A stretch of 64,000 nucleotides of DNA from the sequence record NC_101835.1; one strand, 5' to 3'. Position numbers and translations under genes: made by a program. The notes under the pieces were generated by a model. It was not told the DNA's origin. It did no database searches and saw nothing but the letters and a program-made list of their open reading frames with translations. The stretch is from a phage. Positions 14 to 46,056 of the stretch are shown one piece after another (positions within the stretch are counted from its first letter, which is position 1; every line of letters begins with the position of its first letter).

Positions 14-874
14 GTGAAAGTTGTAAAACGGGACGGTAGAGAAGAGGTCTATAACGGAATTAAGGTGATCAAGGCGGCAGAGTCCGCCTTACTTGAGTCT
101 GGACATACTGAAGAAGAAGCTTACCGGATCGCCTGCGCGGTTAATGAAGTTGTTGCTAACAATCTACCAACCGACCAGTGCACGATCTCTGTAAAAAATA
201 TCCATATCCTTGTTGAAGACGCTCTTATGGATATGGGTTTAAAATGTGCAGCCAGAGAATACATCCAGTATAGGCAGACAAGAGATAATAACAGAGAGGC
301 AGGTGGAAAACTGCTTGCAGATATTAGTGGCTTCTTGGATCGCACTTGTGATGAATTTACAAAAGAAAACGCAAATAAGCCTACCAATCATGTACACACT
401 CATCGTGACCTGCTTGCAGGCATCCTTAGCAAACACCTTGCATCAACACAGATCCTGCCAGACCGTGTCTCAGAAGAGCACAATAGAGGCTTCATCCATG
501 TGCATGATCTTGACTACTTGATCAGTCCGTTAACAAACTGTTGTTTGGTAAATTATCCAGATATGTTGGAAAACGGATTCAATATTGGTAACGCCCATGT
601 CAGTAAGCCGAAGTCAATAGGGGTTGCAACAACAATCCTTAGCCAAATCTCTAGTGCGGTAGCTAGTGCTCAATATGGTGGTCAGACTATGAGCCATATT
701 GATCATTATCTGGCACAGTATGCTGAAGCAACCTATGAGAAGAACCTTAAATTTTGCCAGGAACATTGGTTGCCAGATGCTGAGACTGTTGCAATGCAAA
801 TGACAGATAAGGACGTGTTTGACAGCATGCAGACGTTGCTTTATCAGATCAACACACTAACCTCGGTAAACGGT
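14..874 (+). CDS. nrdD: anaerobic ribonucleoside-triphosphate reductase NrdD, exon 1
   Basis: GTG start at 14 after GGAGAG; ATP-cone-like N-terminus and class III RNR core; reading frame hits a stop right after ...LTSVNG. Confidence 0.85.
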
Positions 875-1131
875 TAACAAACTGGCCGTTTTAAAACTCT
901 GCTAACCTCAGTATGAGGGGTCAGCTGATCGCTGGCTAACGGGGAACGCTAAGGCGAAAGCTATGCCAATCCCGTGACTAGCTTCACAAGGAGTGAGGCG
1001 GTTGTAACGACTAACCTTTTGGTGTAGGGATTATGGAAGATTCCGAAACGCAGAGGTCTGATTAATAATCACACGGTGTGATTTCAGGCAAGAGATAGTC
1101 TGGCCTTGTGGAAACATAAGGGTGGGGACCG
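875..1131 (+). mobile_element. group I intron in nrdD, no ORF
   Basis: Exon 1 ends on T(874), intron ends on G(1131); exon 2 resumes in frame (NG|QTPFITLSLGLDTS); P7-like agatagtctgg near 1093. Confidence 0.6.
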
Positions 1132-1431
1132 CAAACCCCTTTTATCACATTAAGTTTAGGTCTGGACACCTCAGTATTTGGTAGAATGATTACCAAAAAC
1201 TACTTGAAAGTCCACAAAATGGGTCTTGGTGAAGAACGTATCACACCTGTGTTCCCTAAAGTGCTGTTCTTCCTAGAAGATGGTGTCAACATGAACCCTG
1301 GAGATCCTAACTATGATTTGAAACGATTAGCTCTGGAATGCTCTGCAGAGCGGATTTATCCTGACTTTGTTTCTGTTCCACTAAATCGTAAAGTGACAGG
1401 CTCGACAGATGGTAAAGTAACGAGCATGGGT
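1132..1431 (+). CDS. nrdD: NrdD, exon 2
   Basis: Colinear with class III RNR (QTPF...GLGEERITPVFPK...NPGDPNYDLKRLALECS...VTSMG); frame closes 2 codons after MG. Confidence 0.8.
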
Positions 1432-2193
1432 AAACTATAACTGCTCATGTAAAATCTATCTAAACGGGGAAACTCCAGAACGGACAATCCCGTGCTAAAC
1501 GTAACAGAACTCCTGACCAAGAGGAGTCCTGAAATGAGAAAACAAATTCGTGATTTTGAAGGTTATGAAATTGACGAGATGGGCAATGTTTATTGCACCC
1601 GCTACGAAAATGAAAGAATTATTCATTCGTGGGAAGAGATAAACACAGGTTACCGTCTTGTTAGGATACGCAAGAACAAAAAGACTGTTTGCCTAAGGGT
1701 TCACAGACTTGTTGCTGAAGCGTTCTTACCAAATCCAGACAATTTACCCTATGTTAAGCACAAAGGGGACAACAGGAAAGATAACAGTGTATACAACCTT
1801 GAGTGGGGAGCTTGCCCAGACAATACGCAAGAAGGATACAACAACAACTGTTATGCTTTTTACACAAGATGCCACGGTGTGAAAGCCACCAACAAATTAA
1901 CTGGTGAGGTTTTCCACTTTAAAAGTCTGAGATGTTGTGCTGATGTTTTAGGAGTGGATAGAAAAAGAATATCTGCTATCCTGAAACGTGGTGCGCCTAA
2001 TAACTATGATTACGAGTTCTGTTACGAAATGCCTAACGACTAACCGTGATGAATGTAGCGGTGTAGGGTGTAAGCCGATGACACTCGAAATGGTAGACAC
2101 ACTAAGTGTGAAGATATAGTCTGATCTGCATGGGAACATGCAGCAGCACGTAAAGGTGCGGGGGTGGACTTGCGAACCACCCTGAACATAATG
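1432..2193 (+). mobile_element. group I intron in nrdD carrying an HNH homing endonuclease ORF
   Basis: 5' splice site after T(1431), last nt G(2193); exon 3 resumes MG|CRSFLSKY; aagatatagtc core motif at 2111-2121 downstream of the ORF. Confidence 0.6.
1492..2043 (+). CDS. intron-encoded HNH homing endonuclease
   Basis: HNH_3-type motif VHRLVAEAF...KHKGDNRKDNSVYNLEWG; lies wholly inside intron 2; true start may be the ATG near 1534. Confidence 0.75.
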   Translation: MLNVTELLTKRSPEMRKQIRDFEGYEIDEMGNVYCTRYENERIIHSWEEINTGYRLVRIRKNKKTVCLRVHRLVAEAFLPNPDNLPYVKHKGDNRKDNSVYNLEWGACPDNTQEGYNNNCYAFYTRCHGVKATNKLTGEVFHFKSLRCCADVLGVDRKRISAILKRGAPNNYDYEFCYEMPND

Positions 2194-3171
2194 TGTAGAA
2201 GTTTCTTATCGAAATATAGCGACCCTGTAACAGGCGAGGAGAAATACCTTGGCAGATTTAACTTAGGCGTTGTTAGCATTAACCTGCCAATGATTGCGGC
2301 AAAAGCTAAAACGGAAGGTGTTGATTTCTTTGCAGTTCTTGACGAATACCTGGATCTTGCATACGAGGCTCACCTTGTAAGGGTTAATCGTCTAAAAGGG
2401 GCAAAGGCAGGGCAGAACCCTATCATGTGGTGTGAAGGCGCTCTTGCTCGCCTGGATCCTGAAGAGAGTATTGATAAACTCTTCTATGACGGGTACGCTT
2501 CCATCAGTATTGGGTATATTGGTGTGTATGAAACCTGTCAGATTTTGGGCAGAGAGGGTGACAAGGCTTTAGCTCTTGGAATCCTTCAGCACATGAGAGA
2601 TGCTTGTGAGAGATACAAGAAGGAAAGTAGACTAGCGTTTAGCTTGTACGGCACCCCTTCTGAGAGTCTATGCTATAAAGCTGCAACCTGTCTGGATCGT
2701 GAATATCCTGAAGTGTTGAAGCACGAGCATGAATATCTCACCAACAGTTTCCATCAGCCAGTATGGATCAATAGCTCTCCTTTTGATAAGTGGAAGTATG
2801 AGGAAGGTTTTGCTATGATCTCCTCTGGTGGCAACATCGGATACGTAGAGACACCAAATCTGAAAAACAACTTAGATGCTTTGGAAGCTCTTGTTGATTT
2901 CGGATATAAACACATTATGTATTTTGGTATCAACCAGCCTGTGGATAAATGTCTTAAGTGTGGTTTCTCTGGTGAGTTCAGTGCAACAGCTAAAGGGTTC
3001 TGCTGCCCTGCGTGCGGATGCCACGATGAACAATATATCTCAGTGATCCGAAGAGTGTCTGGCTATCTCTCCAGCCCGAACAGTAGACCGTATAACACAG
3101 GTAAACAAGCAGAGGTTATCGAACGTGTTAAACATGTTGGGAATGTAGACTGGTGTCCGTTGAGTAAATAA
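2194..3171 (+). CDS. nrdD: NrdD, exon 3 (glycyl-radical domain)
   Basis: GRFNLGVVSINLP, C-terminal zinc ribbon CLKCG...CPACGC, glycyl radical motif RRVSGYL. Confidence 0.85.
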   Translation, partial: CRSFLSKYSDPVTGEEKYLGRFNLGVVSINLPMIAAKAKTEGVDFFAVLDEYLDLAYEAHLVRVNRLKGAKAGQNPIMWCEGALARLDPEESIDKLFYDGYASISIGYIGVYETCQILGREGDKALALGILQHMRDACERYKKESRLAFSLYGTPSESLCYKAATCLDREYPEVLKHEHEYLTNSFHQPVWINSSPFDKWKYEEGFAMISSGGNIGYVETPNLKNNLDALEALVDFGYKHIMYFGINQPVDKCLKCGFSGEFSATAKGFCCPACGCHDEQYISVIRRVSGYLSSPNSRPYNTGKQAEVIERVKHVGNVDWCPLSK

Positions 3172-3280
3172 GGAAAGAGATTGAGAGCAAGGATGCTCTC
3201 ATTTTTGTTTTTATTGACTTCTATTCCTCTTTTCTATAGTATGCAATATAAAGTGAATAGCGGAAGGGTCTGGTCTGGTA

Positions 3281-4213
3281 ATGAGGAGACTAACAACCGA
3301 AGAGTTTATAGAAAAAGCTCAGACTATACATGGTGACAAATATGATTACTTCAAAGTGGAGTATAAAAACAACAAGACACCTGTGTGTATAATTTGTCCT
3401 GAGCACGGTGAGTTCTGGCAAACCCCTGTGGCACATGCTTTCAAGAAGCATGGTTGTCCAAGGTGTGGTGGGTCAGCGAAAAAGAACACTGAAGAGTTCA
3501 TAAAAGAGGCTATGGTTGTTCATGGGGACAAGTACGATTACTCATTAGTCAAATATGCGAACATGAGAACGCCTGTAAAAATTGTTTGCCCTGAACACGG
3601 TGTGTTTGAACAATACCCTGAAAACCACTTATACCAAAGAAACGGCTGCCCAGAGTGCTATGACTTAAGACGTGGGCAAAGTCAAGCGTTAACCCATAAG
3701 GAGCATGCTGCAATTATCCACAAAGCCAACCCAGACATAGAAATATTAGAGAAAATTGCCAATGATAACACAAAAGTGCAATGTAGGTGCAAAATTTGTG
3801 GGTATAAGTGGTCTGCTAAACCTAATAACCTAAAAAGTGGTCGTGGCTGCTGTAAATGCGCACAAAATGGATTCTTATCTCATGAGTACGGTAAACTCTA
3901 CATTATGGTTGATGACTTAGAAGTGCCAACACTTATGAAAATCGGTGTATGCGTTAAAATGCACAGGAGGAAAAATGAGGTGCTTAACAGTGCTCGTAAA
4001 TCTGGCGCAGGTGTCCACACTCTTCACGTAGTAAAAACGTGGAGCGGATCAACTCAAAACATGGTAGACTTAGAAAAATCTGTGCATAAGGCCTTCAGCA
4101 AGTATAAAATAAACTTTCCTGTAAAATTTGACGGTAGCACTGAGTTTTTCTACTACAGGCCTGAAGTGTTTGACACGGTAGAAGAGGTATACAAGAAGAT
4201 TTGTGGTAAATGA
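3281..4213 (+). CDS. T5orf172 (GIY-YIG superfamily)-like endonuclease with three N-terminal zinc-ribbon repeats
   Basis: Three repeats HGDKYDY..V.Y.N..TPV.I.CP.HG.F.Q.P..H...GCP.C; C-terminal LYIMVDD..KIGV...GSTEFF resembles T5orf172. Confidence 0.5.
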   Translation: MRRLTTEEFIEKAQTIHGDKYDYFKVEYKNNKTPVCIICPEHGEFWQTPVAHAFKKHGCPRCGGSAKKNTEEFIKEAMVVHGDKYDYSLVKYANMRTPVKIVCPEHGVFEQYPENHLYQRNGCPECYDLRRGQSQALTHKEHAAIIHKANPDIEILEKIANDNTKVQCRCKICGYKWSAKPNNLKSGRGCCKCAQNGFLSHEYGKLYIMVDDLEVPTLMKIGVCVKMHRRKNEVLNSARKSGAGVHTLHVVKTWSGSTQNMVDLEKSVHKAFSKYKINFPVKFDGSTEFFYYRPEVFDTVEEVYKKICGK

Positions 4214-4265
4214 TCGTAGAAAGATACACATATCTTAAACATGCTATAAACTAAGGAGGTACAGT

Positions 4266-4382
4266 ATGTCTACAGGTATTTATAAAATTTGCAAGTGCGG
4301 CTGTAGTTGCAATCTTCGTTGGTGCAAGGCACTAGACGATTTTATCTGGCATTGCCCTAAATGTGATGCGGAGTATCTATGA
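4266..4382 (+). CDS. small Cys-rich zinc-ribbon protein (38 aa)
   Basis: AGGAGG RBS; CKCGCSC...HCPKC; stop overlaps the nrdG start (ATGA). Confidence 0.4.
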   Translation: MSTGIYKICKCGCSCNLRWCKALDDFIWHCPKCDAEYL

Positions 4383-4852
4383 ACATTGTCGGATACACAG
4401 AAATATCTTACACCGAAGGGCCAGGTATTAGAACTGCCTTGTGGGTATCTGGGTGCCCACACGCTTGCCCTGGTTGCTTTAATCAGGCATTTTGGTCAAA
4501 AGATAAGGGGAGGGAGTTCACTGAAGAAGACTTGCAAAAAATCTTGTCAGATTTAGATAACCCGTCTGTGTGCGGTATCTCTCTGCTGGGTGGAGAACCC
4601 TTAGCATACTATAATGAGCCAGATATTATTAGCCTGATGGAGAAAATTAAGGAAAAATTTGGTGACAAGAAAACTATTCTTGTATATACTGGGTTCACAT
4701 TTGACCATATCTCTAGTAATGTTCTTAAACTGGCTGATATCATCATTGACGGTAAGTATGTAAAAGATTTACCAACCAAGAAACCGTTCCGAGGTAGCGA
4801 TAACCAAAGAATGTTTAAAAAAGTAGCAGGCGGTTGGGTCCAGGTAGACTAG
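4379..4852 (+). CDS. nrdG: anaerobic RNR activating protein NrdG (radical SAM)
   Basis: GPGIRTALWVSGCPHACPGCFN and GISLLGGEP motifs typical of NrdG. Confidence 0.9.
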   Translation: MNIVGYTEISYTEGPGIRTALWVSGCPHACPGCFNQAFWSKDKGREFTEEDLQKILSDLDNPSVCGISLLGGEPLAYYNEPDIISLMEKIKEKFGDKKTILVYTGFTFDHISSNVLKLADIIIDGKYVKDLPTKKPFRGSDNQRMFKKVAGGWVQVD

Positions 4853-8709: not shown

Positions 8710-9243
8710 ATGACTTGTGCTAGAAAACCTGATGAACAACGTAACGCCTACGATGAGTATGTGACACCGGAGTGGTGTGCAGAAGGGCTGTATGACCTTA
8801 TTCCGTTCCCAGAAGACTGGACCTACTTAGAGCCTTGCAGGAATAGTGCCTCAGGTGTGTTCTACTCCCGTATGCCGTTAGGATCTGCATGGGGAGAAAT
8901 ACAAGAAGGTGTTGACTATCTGAATACAGAATACAACCATGTTGACTGTATTATCACCAACCCACCATACAGCCTGGCTCGTGAGTTTGTAGACAAGGCG
9001 TTGAAAGATGCTGACGTAGTTATTATGCTTTTGCGTCTTAATTTTCTGGAAAGCAAAGCCAGATTTGAATGGTGGCTTGATAATGCACCTACTACTGTGA
9101 TCACAATATCTAAGCGTCCATCATTTCAATCAAACGGCAGAACTGACGGGCAAGCATATGCGTATTTTGTGTGGGATAAGAAAAACCGTTTAGACTTGCC
9201 GCCGTTTATGTGGTTGGCACCCCCAGAGGTAGACCTGAAATGA
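8710..9243 (+). CDS. DNA N6-adenine methyltransferase (small phage Dam-like)
   Basis: Catalytic IITNPPYS motif; about 177 aa. Confidence 0.6.
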   Translation: MTCARKPDEQRNAYDEYVTPEWCAEGLYDLIPFPEDWTYLEPCRNSASGVFYSRMPLGSAWGEIQEGVDYLNTEYNHVDCIITNPPYSLAREFVDKALKDADVVIMLLRLNFLESKARFEWWLDNAPTTVITISKRPSFQSNGRTDGQAYAYFVWDKKNRLDLPPFMWLAPPEVDLK

Positions 9244-9524
9244 AAATGAGTGCTAAGGACAAATTACACCAGCTAGCGCTAAAACGCCCTGTAACGCTCC
9301 CTGACGAGCTTAACTCCATTTATGATGCGATTGTAGGGGAGATACAAAATAAAGCGTTAGCAGGCTTTCTGGGGTGCGGATTTTCGATAAATCTACCCTC
9401 GCATCTCTCAGATTACTTCCCGCACATTGTTGGAGATTTAAGGGCAGGAGGTCTGCAGGTAGATGTTGTTGGCATCTCCCCAGAGAAAAATAATACGGTT
9501 GCCTACTTGACAGTAACCTGGTAG
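9240..9524 (+). CDS. hypothetical protein
   Basis: In-frame ATG at 9240 overlaps upstream stop (ATGA); track ORF starts 9210. Confidence 0.5.
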   Translation: MKMSAKDKLHQLALKRPVTLPDELNSIYDAIVGEIQNKALAGFLGCGFSINLPSHLSDYFPHIVGDLRAGGLQVDVVGISPEKNNTVAYLTVTW

Positions 9525-35241: not shown

Positions 35242-35574
35242 TTAAGGTAGCCAGTAAACAATCTCGCCTTTCAGCTTCATGTCGTTTCCAACATAAATTT
35301 CCCAGCCATCCATCTTAGCCACTGCAGGAGTGAAGTCCGTAGAACCACTAACCTCTTTCCAAGTCCCGTAGTCAGGTTGCCAGATATAGAATCCACCTTC
35401 CTTGTCCCATGCTCCATATACCACATCGAGCAGGTTGCCCATTGCAACAATAATAGGCCGTGGGAATAATACATCTACAGATGCGCCACAATTTCGGGTA
35501 TCTTTTAAGTTGCAATCCCAAAAGATGTCTGCCAGTGTGGCGGCGATAGCTTTACGTCTTTCCAATGTTACCAT
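35242..35574 (-). CDS. hypothetical protein
   Basis: Track ORF. Confidence 0.5.
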   Translation of the reverse strand: MVTLERRKAIAATLADIFWDCNLKDTRNCGASVDVLFPRPIIVAMGNLLDVVYGAWDKEGGFYIWQPDYGTWKEVSGSTDFTPAVAKMDGWEIYVGNDMKLKGEIVYWLP

Positions 35575-35581
35575 ATCATAC

Positions 35582-35773
35582 TCACTTGTTGTTAAGAAGT
35601 TCTAAAACTTTCTGTTTTACTTTATCAAGATCTGTTGATTCAAAAACTGTGCGATATCCCCAACTTTGCCCGTAGGAGTGACTGCAATCCCCGTAGCACC
35701 ATTGCTCAATTTGATAGTATTCAAGGAACGGGTGCTGTCTAACTATGATACCATCCCGGTTAAAAATTACCAT
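35582..35773 (-). CDS. hypothetical protein
   Basis: Track ORF. Confidence 0.45.
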   Translation of the reverse strand: MVIFNRDGIIVRQHPFLEYYQIEQWCYGDCSHSYGQSWGYRTVFESTDLDKVKQKVLELLNNK

Positions 35774-35836
35774 AATACATCACTCTCTGTTAGTTTATGC
35801 ATATATTATACACTGCAGTTTTCAGATGTCAATCTT

Positions 35837-36031
35837 TTACAGGTTACTCCAGTATAATCGGCATTTACATTTTGGGCAATGAGGTTCTTTTATGTAATAA
35901 CCATCAGTCTTTGGAACACTTTTTGGTGCAGTTTTAAGATTGTACCTGGTAAAACATCGGAAGCAGGTTACCTCTCCCACCTGTTGATCGTTGATCCACT
36001 CACCAGAGTAAAGCTCTTTCTTGTTTCTCAT
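35837..36031 (-). CDS. small zinc-ribbon protein
   Basis: Internal start MRNKKELY; CFRC...CPKCKC. Confidence 0.45.
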   Translation of the reverse strand: MRNKKELYSGEWINDQQVGEVTCFRCFTRYNLKTAPKSVPKTDGYYIKEPHCPKCKCRLYWSNL

Positions 36032-36282
36032 AATTCTCTCCCAAATCCTCTGCAATCTTATACCAAAATCTCCAGCCAGAAAGCACACGGGAACACTTTG
36101 AGGATTGAATCTTTACTTGGCTCGGAAGTTCTTTTTCCGTATGGTAGGTAGAAATACCCTCCTGCAGATTCGAATATAGCTCCTTCGGTTGTATCTACCA
36201 CAGCAAGAATTAAGATTTTAGTCTCCACAGTGCTCTCCTCTCTTAGTTGTTGTGGAGACTATATCACCTCAGAAGATGGTCG

Positions 36283-36681
36283 TCAACACTTTTTGTACTC
36301 TACTACAACCACATCAATATCTGTGGTTGCAAGATTAATTACATCTTCTACATGTTCCCACTTTAGACCGCCAATACCGCATCCGATTTTAGGAATGTAG
36401 AACGGCAATGACACACCTTTGAATACCTCGTTGACTCGCTCAAAACCTTTCATGATTGAGAAGTATTCAGCATTGGGCCCTGGGTAGAACTGGGTATACA
36501 GGTTGATTCCATATACGACCCTGTTCTTGGCAAAATGCTCCCAACAAGAAAACATACCCAGCTTGCCTAGATCACCATAAGCAGTCTCTTTGTCGGCTGC
36601 CAGTGCTTGAGGGAACTCACGGGCAATATCTTTCGCTATGCCTGCACCCATTGTGTGAAAGCAGTTACAACCGTGGATCAT
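36283..36681 (-). CDS. putative macro-domain-like (ADP-ribose binding/processing) protein
   Basis: N-terminal HGCNCFHTMGAGIAKDI pattern resembles macro-like domains; from memory only. Confidence 0.35.
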   Translation of the reverse strand: MIHGCNCFHTMGAGIAKDIAREFPQALAADKETAYGDLGKLGMFSCWEHFAKNRVVYGINLYTQFYPGPNAEYFSIMKGFERVNEVFKGVSLPFYIPKIGCGIGGLKWEHVEDVINLATTDIDVVVVEYKKC

Positions 36682-36731
36682 GTGGCCCGACCCTTTCTTG
36701 AAAAGAGAGATTAGATCTCCCCCCTATAGTA

Positions 36732-37157
36732 TCAATAATCACGGTATGCCAGCTCCTCTTCCGCAATTTCAAAAAACTCAGTCCAGCACTGTGGCATATT
36801 GGAGTTACCGAAGTGGCTTTCATAGTAAAGGTTCTCACCGCTCGGGAGGTAGAAATCTGTTACCTCGTAGAATCCACAATCGTCGCACTCACCTTCTTCA
36901 AACTTGGCCTCAACCTTAATACCGAGGAAGGTGAAAAGTTTATGGATATCTTCAGTTTCGAACTCCCAGCAAATATTGTTTTCCGCATCGGTATAGAACT
37001 GGATCAGCAGACCATTGTCCAGTTTACCAAAATACTCTGTGAAGTAACTTCCTTCCCAGAAATCTTTATGACAAATAATATCCATGCGTTTGCCCATAAT
37101 AATGGTGTGAGCGTTTTGGGCATCGTCACGAATCAGTTTTGGCATTTCATAGATCAT
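36732..37157 (-). CDS. hypothetical acidic protein
   Basis: Track ORF. Confidence 0.5.
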   Translation of the reverse strand: MIYEMPKLIRDDAQNAHTIIMGKRMDIICHKDFWEGSYFTEYFGKLDNGLLIQFYTDAENNICWEFETEDIHKLFTFLGIKVEAKFEEGECDDCGFYEVTDFYLPSGENLYYESHFGNSNMPQCWTEFFEIAEEELAYRDY

Positions 37158-37225
37158 CTTAGTTCTCCGGGTTCAACAGGTGGTGGTGCTACAGGAAGAT
37201 CATAAAACATGGCTATCACAGTCTC

Positions 37226-37423
37226 TTACACAGGAATTGCTTCAAATAGACCGTTATCTATACCGTCCTTCAGATAGAGATTATATTCTATGTCGGTATC
37301 TGTATAAAGGGCAGCATCCAGCATTCTATCTGTGAGTCCATCCATCGGGTGGAGAAACCACCACCCACGCCAGTCAAAGTAACAGCCTGGTGCATCTTCT
37401 CTTACACGGATTCGATAAATCAT
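37226..37423 (-). CDS. hypothetical protein
   Basis: Track ORF. Confidence 0.45.
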   Translation of the reverse strand: MIYRIRVREDAPGCYFDWRGWWFLHPMDGLTDRMLDAALYTDTDIEYNLYLKDGIDNGLFEAIPV

Positions 37424-37519
37424 GGGCAGTGGCCTCCTGTTAGTTATACATCCCAGTTTTCTTCGTTCATCACGTCCTCCCGTTTTATGAAGTTATAATT
37501 GCACACCTTTCAACCTGTG

Positions 37520-37936
37520 TCAACAGAAAACTTCAACAAATTCTTCCACAGTTTTAATGTCATGGGAAAAAGGTTTACGGCTATAACGGGCAATAGCACT
37601 ATCAACCACCGCCCGATACTCAAGATCTTCAGAATATTTCATGAAGCATTGCAGCGTCTCTGGGCAGATAGCTAAATAGCTCCACCACCCTTCTTCAGAT
37701 TGGTAGTCGAATCCCATACTCTCCAACCATGAAGCATATACTCCAGCACCCTCAAGCCAGTGAGTATTTTCATCCAGAAACTTGTTAACAGACATGTGAG
37801 CTTCTAAGCACTTGTCCAGCTCTTTTCCGTTAACCAGCCACGCACTAACTGTGGCGCATCCAAGGTCTACAGATTGAGTTGACAGGTTGTATTGGTCATA
37901 GTTCTCAGGTTTAACAATGATATCTTCTAATGTCAT
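37520..37936 (-). CDS. hypothetical protein
   Basis: Track ORF. Confidence 0.5.
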   Translation of the reverse strand: MTLEDIIVKPENYDQYNLSTQSVDLGCATVSAWLVNGKELDKCLEAHMSVNKFLDENTHWLEGAGVYASWLESMGFDYQSEEGWWSYLAICPETLQCFMKYSEDLEYRAVVDSAIARYSRKPFSHDIKTVEEFVEVFC

Positions 37937-37998: not shown

Positions 37999-38577
37999 CT
38001 AAAAGTATTCATAGAGGTATCCATCGGGAGCTGGAATTTTTTCATGAATGTAGTAACCAACATATATTCCGGTTTCTCTGCTGCAAGAGTTGTGGGATAC
38101 CCATTCTTTAAGAACGTTGCCATTCATGTCCAACCTCCTTACATTTTTGCACCGTCTACCGCTGGTGCTTCTATGTAACAGAATATCCTCTGTCTGCTTG
38201 TCTTTATTTTCTCCCCAAGTCGTTAAACGGATATTATCAAAAGAGTATCCTTTGAAATCGTCTATCCTGTCACAAGAAGGCTTTTTCCTTTTGTCGTATC
38301 CGCTGGCTACCCATTGGTCATACAACTCTTTGTAACCGTTTAGGTATAGCCACTCTTTAAACTCTTTTTTGGTGTAAGTCGGAGGAGGGTGACCTCTTTG
38401 CTTGCTGTTGCACTTTTGAGTCTTGTACAACACACGTATTACACCTTTTTCTGAAGAGTCTTTAGCAAATTGGTCAGCCTCCCTGCTGGCCTTCTTACAG
38501 CACTCTTTGCACGTTGATTTGTTGCTGGTGTAGAAGTCGGAGGCCTCCTTGTCCTCCCCACAACGTTTGCATTTCAT
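37999..38577 (-). CDS. zinc-ribbon plus HNH-like protein with substituted catalytic His
   Basis: N-terminal CKRCG...CKEC; CDRIDDFKGYSFDNIRLTTWGEN follows the HNH_3 pattern with H replaced by R. Confidence 0.35.
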   Translation of the reverse strand: MKCKRCGEDKEASDFYTSNKSTCKECCKKASREADQFAKDSSEKGVIRVLYKTQKCNSKQRGHPPPTYTKKEFKEWLYLNGYKELYDQWVASGYDKRKKPSCDRIDDFKGYSFDNIRLTTWGENKDKQTEDILLHRSTSGRRCKNVRRLDMNGNVLKEWVSHNSCSRETGIYVGYYIHEKIPAPDGYLYEYF

Positions 38578-43356: not shown

Positions 43357-43632
43357 CAATAGTTCAGGTAGGTCGTTAAGCTACCCCGCACCATTACGTG
43401 CATAGCCATACGTTTTCACGTAGGATCGGACCATCTCATATTCCTATGATAAGCAACCACAGGAATCCTCCCATTTCGACCGCACTTGCTGGTCTACTTC
43501 CTTTCGGAATGGCCTCTGAGCGTTCGCTCTTTTGAGCGCTTCGTTGCGGATTACCTTGCCATAAGGTTTAGGCTTCCCGCAGTTAAAGAGGTTATTCGAC
43601 ATAGATTACTCTATGAAGCCACAATGTTATTT
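43357..43632 (-). mobile_element. group I intron in DNA polymerase gene, no ORF
   Basis: Exon 1 ends on U after ...IIYYH, intron ends on G before DE; splicing rebuilds the YYH|DE motif; 276 nt. Confidence 0.6.
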
Positions 43633-46056
43633 ATGGTAATAAATAATACGACGAACACCTTCATCGTACCACCCACGCTTCACCATTTGGTGGTGCATAA
43701 GTATCCCAACCAAGTCACACAGCGATGCACCACCATTCTGTTGATATGCATTAAGTAAAGAGTGTTTAGATCGGGTCCAGATGGCATGACCATCAAAAGA
43801 GTAGATAAACTTCTTACCCGTTGCTTCCCAGAATTTCTCCAGATCCTCTTTACGGCCCTTAAGACCAGGGTTGGCATCCCAAAGCGCATCGATTACCCTT
43901 TGTCCCAACTCTGGAGAGATGTCCAGCATATCTGCAACTTTATCTTTTTGTGCCCCGTACATAACCCCATACGTGATAGGTTTACCGTCGTTACGGGACA
44001 CCTCTCTACCTGCTACTTTTGTATATGCCTCAGCATTGTTTTGGTGTGCGTCCCCGTTACTTACAACATCGTAATACAGGCCGTTGTCGAACTCAAAGGC
44101 ACCCCAAGCCCCGATAAGCTGCTCTAAGTTGGACCCGTCAATACCGATCTCAAAGTATCCCGGAGGAACACCCCACAGACTACGCATCTCTTTACCCATA
44201 ACCACTTTAGGAGATGGTTTAGGCATGTTTGCACAAATACTGTGTTTCTGTCTGGAAGTGTTTGTTAATCCAGAGCTTTTAGCAGGAAGCTTATGGTCAA
44301 TCTTCAAACGTGGGTGATTAAGAAGACCAGTGTCAACCTTATCCTCCTTGATTGGATCAAGTACCGATCTGCGGTTTCGCAATGATAACCATAAGACGAT
44401 ATCTTTAGCCATCTCTCCGTTCAATTTTTCAAGATTCGGACACAGGTGTCCAAACGTATCTTTCAGTTGCGGAGAAGTAATAAGTGCCCTAGCTTTTCTA
44501 CGTATTTTCCCGAATACTTCCTTTTTAATCCTTTCGGAGTTAGGAAAGCTTCGGAACTTGTGCACTGTTGTCTGAAACTTAGCATCAGTTTTGTTCCAGA
44601 AGTTGATAATTAGGTCACAATACTCTGACTCTAAAAGCTCGTCCATGTATGCATATACTCGTGCATCAACATCTGCATCAGGTAGAGCTTTCTTCTTGCT
44701 GTCTTTAGTTACATCCTTAGTTCTCCACATTGTCGGAAGCCAACCAGCACTGATCAGGTATCGCTTAATGTCGTCCTGATTGCTGATTTTCATAGGTATC
44801 TTGCAGTCAGGCATTCGCTTCTGCTGCAGATCGCTTATTGCCTGATCCATCAGCTCTTTAGGCAAAGGTTGTGGTGTGGAGGTGCCCTTAATATAACCTC
44901 TCAAGAAATCAGCCATCTTGTCGGGGTCTTTGCAGCCCATCTCTTCACACCATTTTATCCCCATCTTACTGACATCTCCTGTGGAGGTAAATGCTCTCTT
45001 AGGCGGGGCTTTGAACTCTAGAGCGCTCATGTCTACAGGATAGCCAAGCTTATCTTTTAACCATTTCCAACCATTATTAGAGATTGTCCCGTCTTGGTTA
45101 AACGGCTTTTCAGGGAACTTGGGCCGCTGAGACATTGACAGCTCTTTTAAAGGCAGTTGTGGTTCAACACGATCAGCGATTTCTTTCATCCACGCATCGC
45201 AACGGTCACGTAAAGCAATAGCTCCATCTATGTCGAAGTATACACCCTGACGGGCCTGCAGCTCCATCAGGAAGTGCTGCAGCATGCCTCGACGTAATGC
45301 GTTCTTCCAGGTGATCTTCTTGAACCCTTTCGGCTTCTCTTTGGCAGGATCGTACATAAAGTTCTGCATGTCAGATTTGCCGTAGAATACACCTTTTGAT
45401 TCCGCTACCAGTTCTTTCCAGAGCAGCTCCTGGATGATAACGTCCTCAAATACACGATCCACATACTTCCACAACGGAAGATCGCGCCAGTCATCAATTT
45501 GAACTTTCTGGTTACCAAGGGCATAGCCCCATGCCATAAGGCCGTGGGGACCAACAGGCTGCATTTTCTTAGTAACCGGGTTGAATACAGCGTCCGGACA
45601 ACCTTTTGGTAAAGGGCGATCAGGCCACAAGATTCGGCTCATCGCCAACGTATCAAACAGGTTAACCTGGTGGTCGTTGATAGTCCCCATGCATTTAGGA
45701 TCACGGAACATATCAAAATGAATACCGGATAATCTTTCCATCAGCATAAAGTCATAACTGTAGCAGTTATGGCAGTTCAAAGCTGTTGGTGACCAGTCGG
45801 AATTGCCTGTAAGCCAACCTTCCAACTCCGAAAAATCTGCTATGCGAACTTCAAAACCTTTATAAAGAGTTTTCTTTGCCAGAATGAAGTTCTTAGCCTT
45901 TTCTATATCCTCCTCGGAGTAGTGTGTGCGGTCATTTAGAGGAAGGAACAGCATAAAACGGTTCTTATTCAGCTCTTTAAACAGGCCGCAGTGATAATAA
46001 AGATCTGGATCTTCCAAAAGCCCTGAGGCCTCCAGATCGAAGCACCAATTACTCAT
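43633..46056 (-). CDS. DNA polymerase A, exon 1 (3'-5' exonuclease and polymerase motifs A/B)
   Basis: Exo I FDLEASGL; motif B RNDGKPITYGVMYGAQ; upstream of motif C colinear with T7 gp5. Confidence 0.8.

What the first reader, a model, noticed from the sequence alone, without database searches (positions are those of the whole stretch)
36283..36681. Possible macro-domain protein inside the accessory array
The N-terminus HGCNCFHTMGAGIAKDI resembles the nucleotide-binding loop of macro-like domains. Phage macro domains can reverse ADP-ribosylation, which would fit an anti-defence role. The assignment is from memory and is weak.
Basis: inference. Interest (0 to 1): 0.45.

Follow-up and report, generated by a model that had tools for sequence, protein, structure and literature searches.

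The report
Frameshifted phage macrodomain (AdfM/Tk.4) gene
The ORF is a genuine macro-domain gene, the rV5-like phage counterpart of phage T4's Tk.4/AdfM enzyme thought to strip toxic ADP-ribose from phage DNA, but in this genome one extra G near its start cuts off the first 20 codons, so it is an ordinary known gene that is probably broken here.

Summary
A 132-aa ORF lies at 36283-36681 on the minus strand and begins MIHGCNCFHTMGAGIAKDI. It is a macro domain by four tests: Pfam Macro above its cutoff, PHROG 335 at E 5e-53, a confident AlphaFold model, and best Foldseek matches to TARG1, DarG, Poa1p, BT1257 and SCO6735. The window is a Vequintavirus (rV5-like coliphage). The gene is the ortholog of T4 tk.4 (39-41% identity over the full length). 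A 2025 preprint named tk.4 adfM, an anti-DarTG2 factor. GenBank relatives already label the gene "macro domain protein", "Tk.4" or "Poa1p-like".

In all relatives read, the gene is 459 nt (152 aa) and starts at a GTG that overlaps the upstream gene. The window has G6 where its closest relatives have G5 (36719-36724). This +1 frameshift disconnects the first 20 codons, which encode strand β1 and the conserved G-[D/N]-L motif.

All 32-35 neighbouring genes are intact, so I favour a real loss-of-function mutation over a sequencing error, without proof. Two other phage assemblies carry independent deletions in the same gene.

The family is already known. Interest is low.

The parts
36283..36681 (-). 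132-aa ORF (ATG start) equal to residues 21-152 of the ancestral 152-aa macrodomain protein. It contains the whole Pfam Macro region, the family-invariant Asn6 (36664-36666) and Gln64 (36490-36492), and the Gly-rich loop G100-G105 (36367-36384).
36682..36723 (-). 14 codons in the macro reading frame (GGDLISLFKKGSGH) with no start codon. They encode the conserved G-[D/N]-L motif and the following helix. A TAG at 36724-36726 closes the frame upstream.
36719..36724 (-). G6 homopolymer (C6 on the plus strand). The closest relatives phita32, C5 and PDX have G5; A51.2, Murica and PMBT16 have GGTGG, GCGGG and AAGGG. The extra base is the +1 frameshift.
36665..36742 (-). Ancestral GTG start (36740-36742) now opening a 25-codon dead-end ORF, MIIDTIGGRSNLSFQERVGPHDPRL*. 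Its TAA (36665-36667) lies 12 nt downstream of the internal ATG codon.
36753..36758 (-). GAGGAG Shine-Dalgarno sequence 10 nt upstream of the ancestral GTG start. Murica annotates a ribosome-binding site at the corresponding place.
36732..37157 (-). Upstream gene (141 aa, phrog_8157, function unknown). Its last 11 nt overlap the ancestral start of the macro gene.

Best explanation
This is the Vequintavirus ortholog of T4 tk.4/adfM. It is a stand-alone macrodomain of the ALC1-like class, which also contains TARG1, DarG, SCO6735 and Poa1p. In intact relatives the 152-aa enzyme most likely acts as an orphan antitoxin. It binds ADP-ribose attached to thymidine in phage single-stranded DNA by the host DarT2 toxin and hydrolyses the bond, which restores replication (inferred from homologs). 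Its active site resembles SCO6735, with an invariant Asn and Gln, and differs from DarG and TARG1, whose catalytic Lys is a Gln here. In this window a single extra G in a G-run (36719-36724) shifts the frame after codon 8. Ribosomes that start at the ancestral GTG make a 25-aa dead-end peptide. The macro frame can only be entered at the internal ATG (36681). The resulting protein lacks strand β1, the following helix and the G-[D/N]-L motif, whose Asp contacts the adenine in other macrodomains. I judge this a real loss-of-function or strongly hypomorphic allele of a dispensable accessory gene. Shown here: domain identity, orthology, the frameshift and the retained or lost motifs. Inferred: the substrate, the anti-DarT2 role, the loss of activity, and that the extra G is biological.
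For: Macro identity:
- Pfam Macro 26.6 bits against a cutoff of 22; PHROG 335 at E 5e-53.
- A family profile hits BT1257 (8e-16), SCO6735 (8e-15), DarG (3e-14), TARG1 (3e-12) and Poa1p (9e-12) in the PDB.
- The AlphaFold model of full-length P0001 has pLDDT 92.4, and its top Foldseek hits are TARG1, Poa1p and DarG. The window ORF model has pLDDT 89.7 and hits the same structures.

Orthology to T4 Tk.4:
- 39% identity, E 6e-44, end to end. rV5 itself annotates the gene as tk.4.

Function of homologs:
- A tk.4 knockout sensitises T4 to DarTG2 (preprint 10.1101/2025.11.20.689424).
- The PhiKZ AdfM macrodomain removes DarT2 ADP-ribose from DNA (PMC13309987).
- SCO6735 cleaves thymidine-linked ADP-ribose and needs Asn27 and Gln85 (PMC9411070).
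- The Asn and Gln equivalents are invariant in 63/63 family members.

Frameshift:
- Seven relatives read base by base have 12 nt where the window has 13.
- All 40 listed phage records align 120 nt to the 121-nt query.
- Relatives annotate a 459-nt gene.
- In Murica the internal Met codon is CTG, so the upstream GTG must be the true start.
- The lost segment is conserved across the family: G8 in 54/62, D/N9 in 61/62, L/I10 in 62/62. It is modelled at pLDDT 97 as β1 plus a helix.

Real mutation rather than assembly noise:
- All other 32-35 annotated genes across window 26-40 kb are intact.
- No other gene-strand ORF of at least 110 aa is split across 31-64 kb.

Dispensability:
- Other phage assemblies carry independent deletion alleles of the same gene.
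Against: - No reads are available, so a single homopolymer miscall cannot be excluded.
- No other sequence in any searched collection carries the G6 allele, so it has no independent confirmation.
- The 132-aa ORF keeps the entire Pfam Macro region and has a weak AAGGG Shine-Dalgarno 9 nt before its ATG, so some expression and residual activity are possible.
- AlphaFold still folds the truncated ORF confidently, although that says nothing about stability.
- No activity against DarT2 has been measured for any Vequintavirus protein. For T4 Tk.4 the evidence is genetic only and comes from a preprint.
- The catalytic Lys of DarG is absent, so the DarG mechanism cannot simply be transferred.
Confidence: 0.6

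Rival explanations
1. The extra G is a sequencing or assembly error in a homopolymer. The phage really encodes the intact 152-aa AdfM-type macrodomain and uses it normally.
For: - The difference is a single base in a 5-6 nt G-run, the classic site for homopolymer miscalls.
- The allele is seen nowhere else.
- Removing one G restores a protein 97% identical to P0001 with a wild-type-like N-terminus MIIDTIGGDLISLF.
Against: - None of the other 32-35 annotated genes in 26-40 kb shows a frameshift.
- No other gene-strand ORF of at least 110 aa is split across 31-64 kb. An error-prone assembly would show more than one.
- G-runs are also natural slippage hotspots.
- Other phages carry independent lesions of this gene.
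Confidence: 0.33
2. The 132-aa product made from the internal ATG is itself a working macrodomain, or an ADP-ribose-binding protein, so the frameshift has little consequence.
For: - The ORF contains all of Pfam Macro positions 1-117, the invariant Asn and Gln, and the Gly-rich loop.
- A weak Shine-Dalgarno precedes the ATG. The dead-end upstream ORF stops 12 nt downstream of the ATG codon, which would allow reinitiation (sequence).
- The phita32 annotators called this same short ORF.
Against: - Nearly all of the 120 listed homologs are 145-180 aa and carry the N-terminal strand. The shorter ones examined are deletion alleles or fragments.
- The lost G-[D/N]-L motif is among the best conserved in the family.
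- From general knowledge of macrodomains (Af1521 Asp20, SARS-CoV-2 Mac1 Asp22), this motif corresponds to the Asp that contacts the adenine.
- In Murica the internal ATG is CTG, so it is not a conserved start.
Confidence: 0.1
3. The family's real substrate is not DarT2-modified DNA. Alternatives are ADP-ribosylated protein or RNA (for example to counter other ADP-ribosylating defences) or ADP-ribose-1''-phosphate, as the inherited 'phosphatase' annotation implies.
For: - PHROG 335, RefSeq and T4 label the family 'phosphatase' or 'A1pp'.
- Poa1p and TARG1 are among the best structural matches.
- SCO6735 and TARG1 also act on proteins.
- Bacterial homologs such as P0083 stand alone with no DarT neighbour.
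Against: - The only genetic test of a family member (T4 tk.4) gave a single, specific phenotype against DarTG2.
- The 'phosphatase' label is an old domain-name transfer, not an assay result.
- The Asn/Gln pair matches the enzyme shown to cleave thymidine-linked ADP-ribose.
Confidence: 0.15
4. The G-run is a functional switch. Ribosomal +1 slippage or polymerase slippage on GGGGGG-AGA would restore the full-length protein in a fraction of products or progeny, making this a phase-variable anti-defence gene.
For: - A +1 shift anywhere in the G-run recreates the wild-type-like MIIDTIGGDLISLF (sequence).
- The zero-frame codon after the run is AGA, which is rare in E. coli.
- A hairpin follows immediately.
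Against: - No relative has the G6 configuration, so nothing is conserved.
- A six-base run is short for efficient slippage.
- The hairpin region is not more stable than shuffled controls (z = 0.38).
Confidence: 0.03

Closest known systems
T4 Tk.4 = AdfM (anti-DarT factor macrodomain; HIDEN-SEQ preprint 10.1101/2025.11.20.689424)
   Same: - Stand-alone macrodomain of about 150 aa in an early accessory gene block.
- 39-41% identical over the full length.
- Same invariant HGCNCFHTMG, NxYTQ and IGxGIxG motifs.
- rV5 annotates its own gene as tk.4.
   Different: - The window copy lacks the first 20 codons because of a +1 frameshift.
- No Vequintavirus protein has been tested against DarTG2.
PhiKZ gp104 AdfM (chimallivirus DarG2-like macrodomain; PMC13309987)
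   Same: A phage-encoded orphan macrodomain with the same proposed job, removing DarT2 ADP-ribose from DNA.
   Different: - Only 21% identity at E 8e-4.
- PhiKZ keeps the DarG-type 'PTK' lysine, where this family has 'YTQ'.
- PhiKZ AdfM is imported into a phage nucleus, which rV5-like phages are not known to build.
SCO6735 (S. coelicolor) and BT1257 macrodomains (PDB 5e3b, 2fg1)
   Same: - Best profile matches in the PDB (E 8e-15 and 8e-16).
- Share the Asn27 and Gln85 equivalents that SCO6735 needs to cleave thymidine-linked ADP-ribose.
- Stand-alone genes without a DarT partner.
   Different: - The position of SCO6735 Val25 is Gly here.
- About 23% identity.
- The longer mobile loop and Lys89/Lys94 of SCO6735 were not checked.
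- These are bacterial housekeeping or stress genes, not phage genes.
DarG antitoxin of DarTG2 (PDB 5m31, 5m3i, 7omu; NCBIfam NF048014)
   Same: Macro fold with TM about 0.73-0.76. The HMM match covers the macro part.
   Different: - 42 bits against a 250-bit equivalog cutoff.
- No C-terminal DarT-binding domain.
- The catalytic Lys is replaced by Gln.
Human TARG1/OARD1 and yeast Poa1p
   Same: Top Foldseek hits (E 2e-10 and 3e-9). Same ALC1-like macrodomain class.
   Different: - The Lys84/Asp125 dyad of TARG1 is not conserved.
- The Poa1p phosphatase activity behind the 'phosphatase' annotation has not been tested for this family.

Membership tests
Macro domain superfamily (Pfam PF01661) | HMM score above the curated gathering threshold | tested here: met
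   26.6 bits against 22 for the window ORF. The full-length relative scores 26.2 bits and T4 Tk.4 scores 27.7 bits.
Macro domain superfamily (Pfam PF01661) | Three-layer alpha/beta/alpha macro fold | tested here: met
   AlphaFold pLDDT is 89.7 for the window ORF and 92.4 for P0001. The top 50 Foldseek PDB hits are all macrodomains or designs built on a macro scaffold, with TM 0.6-0.76.
Macro domain superfamily (Pfam PF01661) | Gly-rich loops that bind the ADP-ribose diphosphate and distal ribose | tested here: met
   HGCNCFHTMGAGIA and IPKIGCGIGG are present. G24, N26, G34, G120 and G122 (P0001 numbering) are invariant in 63 sequences.
Macro domain superfamily (Pfam PF01661) | N-terminal strand β1 followed by the G-D/N-L/I motif (the adenine-contacting Asp of other macrodomains) | tested here: not met
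   Absent from the 132-aa ORF. It is encoded at 36682-36742 but disconnected by the +1 frameshift. The PADLOC DarG model matches from position 20 for the window ORF and from position 3 for P0001.
T4 Tk.4 / AdfM family (PHROG 335) | Full-length sequence homology to T4 Tk.4 | tested here: met
   E 2e-39 at 41% identity for the window ORF (residues 3-130 against 22-152). E 6e-44 for the intact ortholog, end to end. PHROG 335 at E 5e-53.
T4 Tk.4 / AdfM family (PHROG 335) | Protects the phage against DarTG2 | not testable with these tools
   Shown genetically for T4 only. It needs plaque assays on DarTG2+ hosts.
T4 Tk.4 / AdfM family (PHROG 335) | Intact open reading frame of about 150 aa | tested here: not met
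   The +1 G at 36719-36724 leaves 132 aa from an internal ATG.
DarG antitoxin (NCBIfam NF048014 equivalog) | Score above the equivalog cutoff, and a C-terminal DarT-binding domain | tested here: not met
   42.2 bits against 250. The match covers only model positions 19-144 of 338, and the protein ends after the macro domain.
DarG antitoxin (NCBIfam NF048014 equivalog) | Catalytic lysine (Taq DarG Lys80, TARG1 Lys84) in the P-T-K motif | tested here: not met
   It aligns to the invariant Gln of Y-T-Q. The residue roles come from PMC9411070.
SCO6735-type ALC1-like macrodomains | Asn27 and Gln85 equivalents required for cleaving thymidine-linked ADP-ribose | tested here: met
   Asn6 and Gln64 of the window ORF (N26 and Q84 of P0001) align to SCO6735 Asn27 and Gln85 and are 63/63 invariant.
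SCO6735-type ALC1-like macrodomains | Val or Ile at the Val25 position (backbone carbonyl positions the catalytic water) | tested here: inconclusive
   The aligned residue is an invariant Gly. The proposed role is backbone-mediated, so the side chain may not matter.
Poa1p-like ADP-ribose-1''-phosphate phosphatase (source of the 'phosphatase' label) | Appr-1''-p phosphatase activity | not testable with these tools
   There is only structural and sequence similarity (profile E 9e-12, Foldseek E 3e-9). No assay exists for this family.

The most novel reading that the evidence does not exclude
The G6 tract at the 5' end of the macro gene is a contingency switch, not a dead mutation. Ribosomal +1 slippage at GGG-GGG-AGA, or slippage of the replicase or RNA polymerase between G5 and G6, would turn an anti-DarT2 enzyme on in a fraction of products or progeny. 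The phage population could then hedge between the cost and the benefit of carrying the counter-defence.
Probability: 0.04. Interest if true: 0.55.

Novelty: already known. Interest (0 to 1): 0.15.

Why it matters
For annotation, the ORF should be labelled a frameshifted AdfM/Tk.4-type macrodomain (ADP-ribosylglycohydrolase) gene. It should not be called a "phosphatase" or an intact protein.

For biology, the result gives a simple prediction. If the extra G is real, this phage should be more sensitive to DarTG2-carrying E. coli than its close relatives PDX and phita32. That makes a ready natural control for testing AdfM function in Vequintavirinae.

Two smaller points may interest specialists. 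The T4/rV5 AdfM lineage carries the SCO6735-type Asn/Gln site, while the PhiKZ AdfM lineage keeps the DarG lysine, so phages appear to have recruited two different macrodomain lineages for the same job. The gene also shows at least three independent lesions in sequenced phages, as expected for a conditionally useful accessory gene.

Tried and rejected
- Looked for the G6 allele elsewhere. The 121-nt query against 50,697 phage records gave a best identity of 98.3%, and every listed match is one base shorter. The exact-product look-up found nothing. Exact and degenerate DNA patterns for both the G6 and G5 alleles found nothing in IMG/VR, JGI metagenomes or GTDB genomes. These collections say nothing about the allele either way.
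- Tested whether the window is generally riddled with frameshifts. A stop-to-stop ORF comparison with PDX was noisy because it includes non-coding frames. tblastn of annotated genes from SophiaRose and bov10K2 was cleaner and showed only the macro gene affected. One apparent extra split at 8919-9263 lies on the non-coding strand.
- Considered an in-frame TAG read-through or recoding model (TTG-ATA-CTA-TAG-GGG). Rejected because relatives use the GTG in the other frame and differ from the window by one base.
- Considered the hairpin over the G-run as a terminator or frameshift stimulator. It forms, but the region is no more stable than shuffled controls (z = 0.38) and the scan does not flag it as a terminator.
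- Checked whether bacterial homologs sit next to DarT. The one examined (P0083, Pelagimonas) does not.
- Neighbouring genes gave no functional clue. All are PHROGs of unknown function except a zinc-binding domain protein and an endonuclease VII-like ORF.
- A literature search for 'Tk.4' together with 'macro domain' found nothing. The link came from the HIDEN-SEQ preprint.

Full report
**Observation**

The minus strand of 36283-36681 holds an ATG-initiated ORF of 132 codons. It is clearly a gene. 260 proteins in the 5.8-billion-protein collection match at E <= 1e-3, and the best (P0001, from Escherichia phage EduardKellenberger and 364 other members) is 97% identical at E 4.9e-84.

**What it is**

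- Pfam Macro (PF01661) scores 26.6 bits, above its 22-bit gathering threshold.
- PHROG 335, labelled 'phosphatase', matches at E 4.8e-53.
- The NCBIfam and PADLOC DarG models match over their macro part only, at E 6e-11 and 7e-12. The NCBIfam score of 42 bits is far below the 250-bit equivalog cutoff.
- A profile of 63 family members hits these solved structures: BT1257 (8e-16), SCO6735 (8e-15), DarG (3e-14), TARG1 (3e-12) and Poa1p (9e-12).
- AlphaFold models are confident: pLDDT 92.4 for the full-length ortholog and 89.7 for the window ORF.
- Foldseek ranks the TARG1, Poa1p, DarG, BT1257 and SCO6735 macrodomains first, with TM about 0.7-0.76.

**Genomic setting**

The window is a Vequintavirus (rV5-like) coliphage.

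- The 2.3 kb around the ORF is 97-98.5% identical to phages phita32, PDX, 'Campylobacter phage' C5 and many others.
- Over 24 kb the best records are about 95% identical, so this exact phage is not in the collection.
- The ORF sits in a long minus-strand run of small early genes. All are PHROGs of unknown function, apart from a phage zinc-binding domain protein and an endonuclease VII-like ORF.
- GenBank relatives already annotate the gene as 'macro domain protein', 'phosphatase', 'Poa1p-like family protein' or 'tk.4'.

**The ORF is 5'-truncated**

- In relatives the gene is 459 nt (152 aa). It starts at a GTG that overlaps the upstream gene by 11 nt and follows a GAGGAG Shine-Dalgarno.
- The N-terminus in relatives reads M-I-I-D-T-V-G/K/A-G-D-L-I-S-I/L-F-K-K/S-G-S/A-G-H, followed by M/L-I-H-G-C-N-C.
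- Base-by-base comparison shows ACT-GTA-GGG-GGA-GAT in the closest relatives (phita32, C5, PDX). The window has ACT-ATA-GGG-GGG-A-GAT. That is one G-to-A substitution plus one extra G in the run at 36719-36724.
- All 40 listed records in a focused search align 120 nt to the 121-nt query.
- In the window the GTG at 36740-36742 therefore opens a 25-codon dead-end ORF, MIIDTIGGRSNLSFQERVGPHDPRL, which stops at 36665-36667.
- The macro frame is open from 36723 but has no canonical start until the ATG at 36681.
- That ATG is not a conserved start. It is CTG in Murica.
- The upstream 20 codons evolve as coding sequence, with synonymous differences between Murica and A51.2.

**What is lost and what is kept**

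- In the model of the intact ortholog, residues 2-8 form strand β1, 10-15 a helix and 20-24 strand β2. All are at pLDDT about 97.
- Across the family alignment (62 sequences have these columns; the window ORF is gapped there), Gly8 occurs in 54, position 9 is Asp in 44 and Asn in 17, and position 10 is Leu in 55 and Ile in 7.
- From established knowledge of macrodomains (Af1521 Asp20, SARS-CoV-2 Mac1 Asp22), the Asp after β1 hydrogen-bonds the adenine N6 of ADP-ribose.
- The 132-aa ORF keeps the complete Pfam Macro region, whose model starts only at residue 22. It also keeps the invariant Asn (window codon 6), the invariant Gln (codon 64) and the Gly-rich loop (codons 100-105).

**Is the extra G real?**

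This cannot be proven without reads. The context can be tested.

- tblastn of the 35 annotated proteins of SophiaRose against window 26-40 kb finds all but one (a gene with no counterpart in the window), each as a single in-frame match. All 32 bov10K2 proteins behave the same way. Only the macro gene's match begins at residue 8-12.
- Two other flags in that test are trivial C-terminal length differences.
- Against PDX, no other gene-strand ORF of at least 110 aa is split across 31-64 kb. An apparent split at about 9 kb is on the non-coding strand.
- The assembly is therefore not generally prone to homopolymer errors. I favour a genuine slippage mutation at roughly 60:35 over an isolated miscall.
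- Loss is plausible biologically. A 135.5-kb Logan contig (L011) carries a deletion of about 500 nt, equivalent to window 36494-36993. It fuses the upstream gene to the C-terminal 40% of the macro gene across a 9-nt microhomology.
- Two other samples carry a 92-aa allele with an internal in-frame deletion.
- No collection contains the G6 allele itself.

**How the intact protein most likely works**

- The full-length ortholog is 39% identical to T4 Tk.4 from end to end (E 6e-44).
- A 2025 preprint found tk.4 as the single T4 gene depleted in a transposon library grown on a DarTG2-expressing host. A clean knockout became DarTG2-sensitive, and the authors named the gene adfM.
- Independently, PhiKZ gp104, also named AdfM, was shown in vitro to remove DarT2-added ADP-ribose from a TNTC oligonucleotide and to rescue DarT2 toxicity.
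- The window family is only distantly related to PhiKZ gp104 (21% identity, E 8e-4) and differs at the catalytic position. DarG, TARG1 and PhiKZ gp104 have P-T-K, whereas this family, including T4 Tk.4, has an invariant Y-T-Q.
- That Gln, and the invariant Asn in H-G-C-N-C, align with Gln85 and Asn27 of SCO6735. SCO6735 is a stand-alone macrodomain that cleaves thymidine-linked ADP-ribose on DNA and rescues DarT toxicity. Its Q85A mutation abolishes activity and N27S nearly abolishes it (PMC9411070).
- The best-supported mechanism is therefore an orphan-antitoxin ADP-ribosylglycohydrolase with SCO6735-like, water-mediated chemistry that erases DarT2 marks from phage ssDNA. This is inferred from homologs and was not tested for any Vequintavirus protein.

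**Consequence in this window**

If the G6 is real, the phage makes no full-length enzyme. At most it makes a Met21-initiated fragment, through a weak AAGGG Shine-Dalgarno 9 nt upstream of the ATG or by reinitiation after the dead-end ORF. I expect that fragment to be inactive or strongly impaired, because it lacks an integral β-strand and the adenine-contact motif. This expectation is inference.

**Rival readings**

- Sequencing error, about 0.33.
- A functional truncated protein, about 0.1.
- A different substrate for the family (protein, RNA or Appr-1''-p), about 0.15.
- A slippage-based switch, about 0.03.

The last has nothing conserved to support it. The overlapping hairpin is no more stable than shuffled sequence.

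**Comparison with known systems and novelty**

- The ORF belongs to the macro superfamily and to the T4 Tk.4/AdfM family (PHROG 335).
- It is not a DarG. It falls below the equivalog cutoff, has no DarT-binding domain and has no catalytic Lys.
- It works most like SCO6735.
- The family, its presence in rV5-like phages and its probable anti-DarTG2 role are all already on record, so the finding is 'already known'.
- The frameshift allele is new but ordinary.
- Interest is 0.15. A specialist would not be surprised. The only modest value lies in the natural knockout and in the Gln-versus-Lys split between the two AdfM lineages.

Noticed in passing
window 14-4852 (+): The anaerobic ribonucleotide reductase gene nrdD is in pieces relative to phage PDX (ORFs 14-877, about 1120-1437, and 2164-3171). 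Insertions lie at about 874-1130 and 1432-2201, and the second carries an HNH/NUMOD-like ORF (1492-2043). A T5orf172/GIY-YIG-type ORF (3281-4213) sits between nrdD and nrdG (4379-4852). These look like intron or homing-endonuclease insertions, but Rfam finds no intron there at gathering threshold.
   Followed up: partly
window 43407-43642 (-): A group I catalytic intron (Rfam RF00028, 64.7 bits, E 4e-14) lies immediately downstream of an 809-aa minus-strand ORF (43627-46056). A large replication gene is probably intron-split here.
   Followed up: no
window 37999-38577 (-): An endonuclease VII-like/HNH ORF (192 aa, phrog_1035) is present here and in PMBT16, inoa, SophiaRose and bov10K2. It is absent from the same position in PDX, A51.2 and Murica, so it is a presence/absence polymorphism typical of a mobile homing endonuclease gene.
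   Followed up: partly
L011 2501-2866; L012 and L013 2501-2779: Other phages carry independent lesions of the same macro gene. One is a deletion of about 500 nt (equivalent to window 36494-36993) that fuses the upstream gene to the macro C-terminus on a 135.5-kb contig. The other is a 92-aa internal in-frame deletion allele found in two samples. The gene seems to be lost recurrently.
   Followed up: yes
window 36697-36724 (-): A hairpin (GGGAGAU-CUA-AUCUCUC followed by UUUU) overlaps codons 7-14 of the ancestral macro gene, right after the upstream gene's stop. Murica annotates the equivalent as a terminator. It is conserved in relatives, but this may simply reflect the G-D-L-I-S codons. It is not more stable than shuffled sequence.
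   Followed up: partly
T4 Tk.4 (L010 6923-7390) versus PhiKZ gp104: The two phage proteins both named AdfM belong to different macrodomain lineages. T4 Tk.4 and the rV5-like proteins have an invariant Y-T-Q (SCO6735/BT1257-type Gln). PhiKZ gp104 has the DarG-type P-T-K lysine. The two share only about 21% identity.
   Followed up: partly
window 35805-35832 (-) and 36258-36286 (-): A perfect sigma-70 consensus promoter (TTGACA-16-TATAAT) and a second strong match (TTGACG-17-TATAGT with an extended TG) lie between the small minus-strand genes. This fits an early, host-RNA-polymerase-transcribed accessory block.
   Followed up: no
phage records MG0656xx found with window 35500-37800: Sixteen to 22 records named 'Campylobacter phage' (UNVERIFIED, unannotated) are 94-98% identical to this Escherichia Vequintavirus region. 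Their host labels look doubtful.
   Followed up: no
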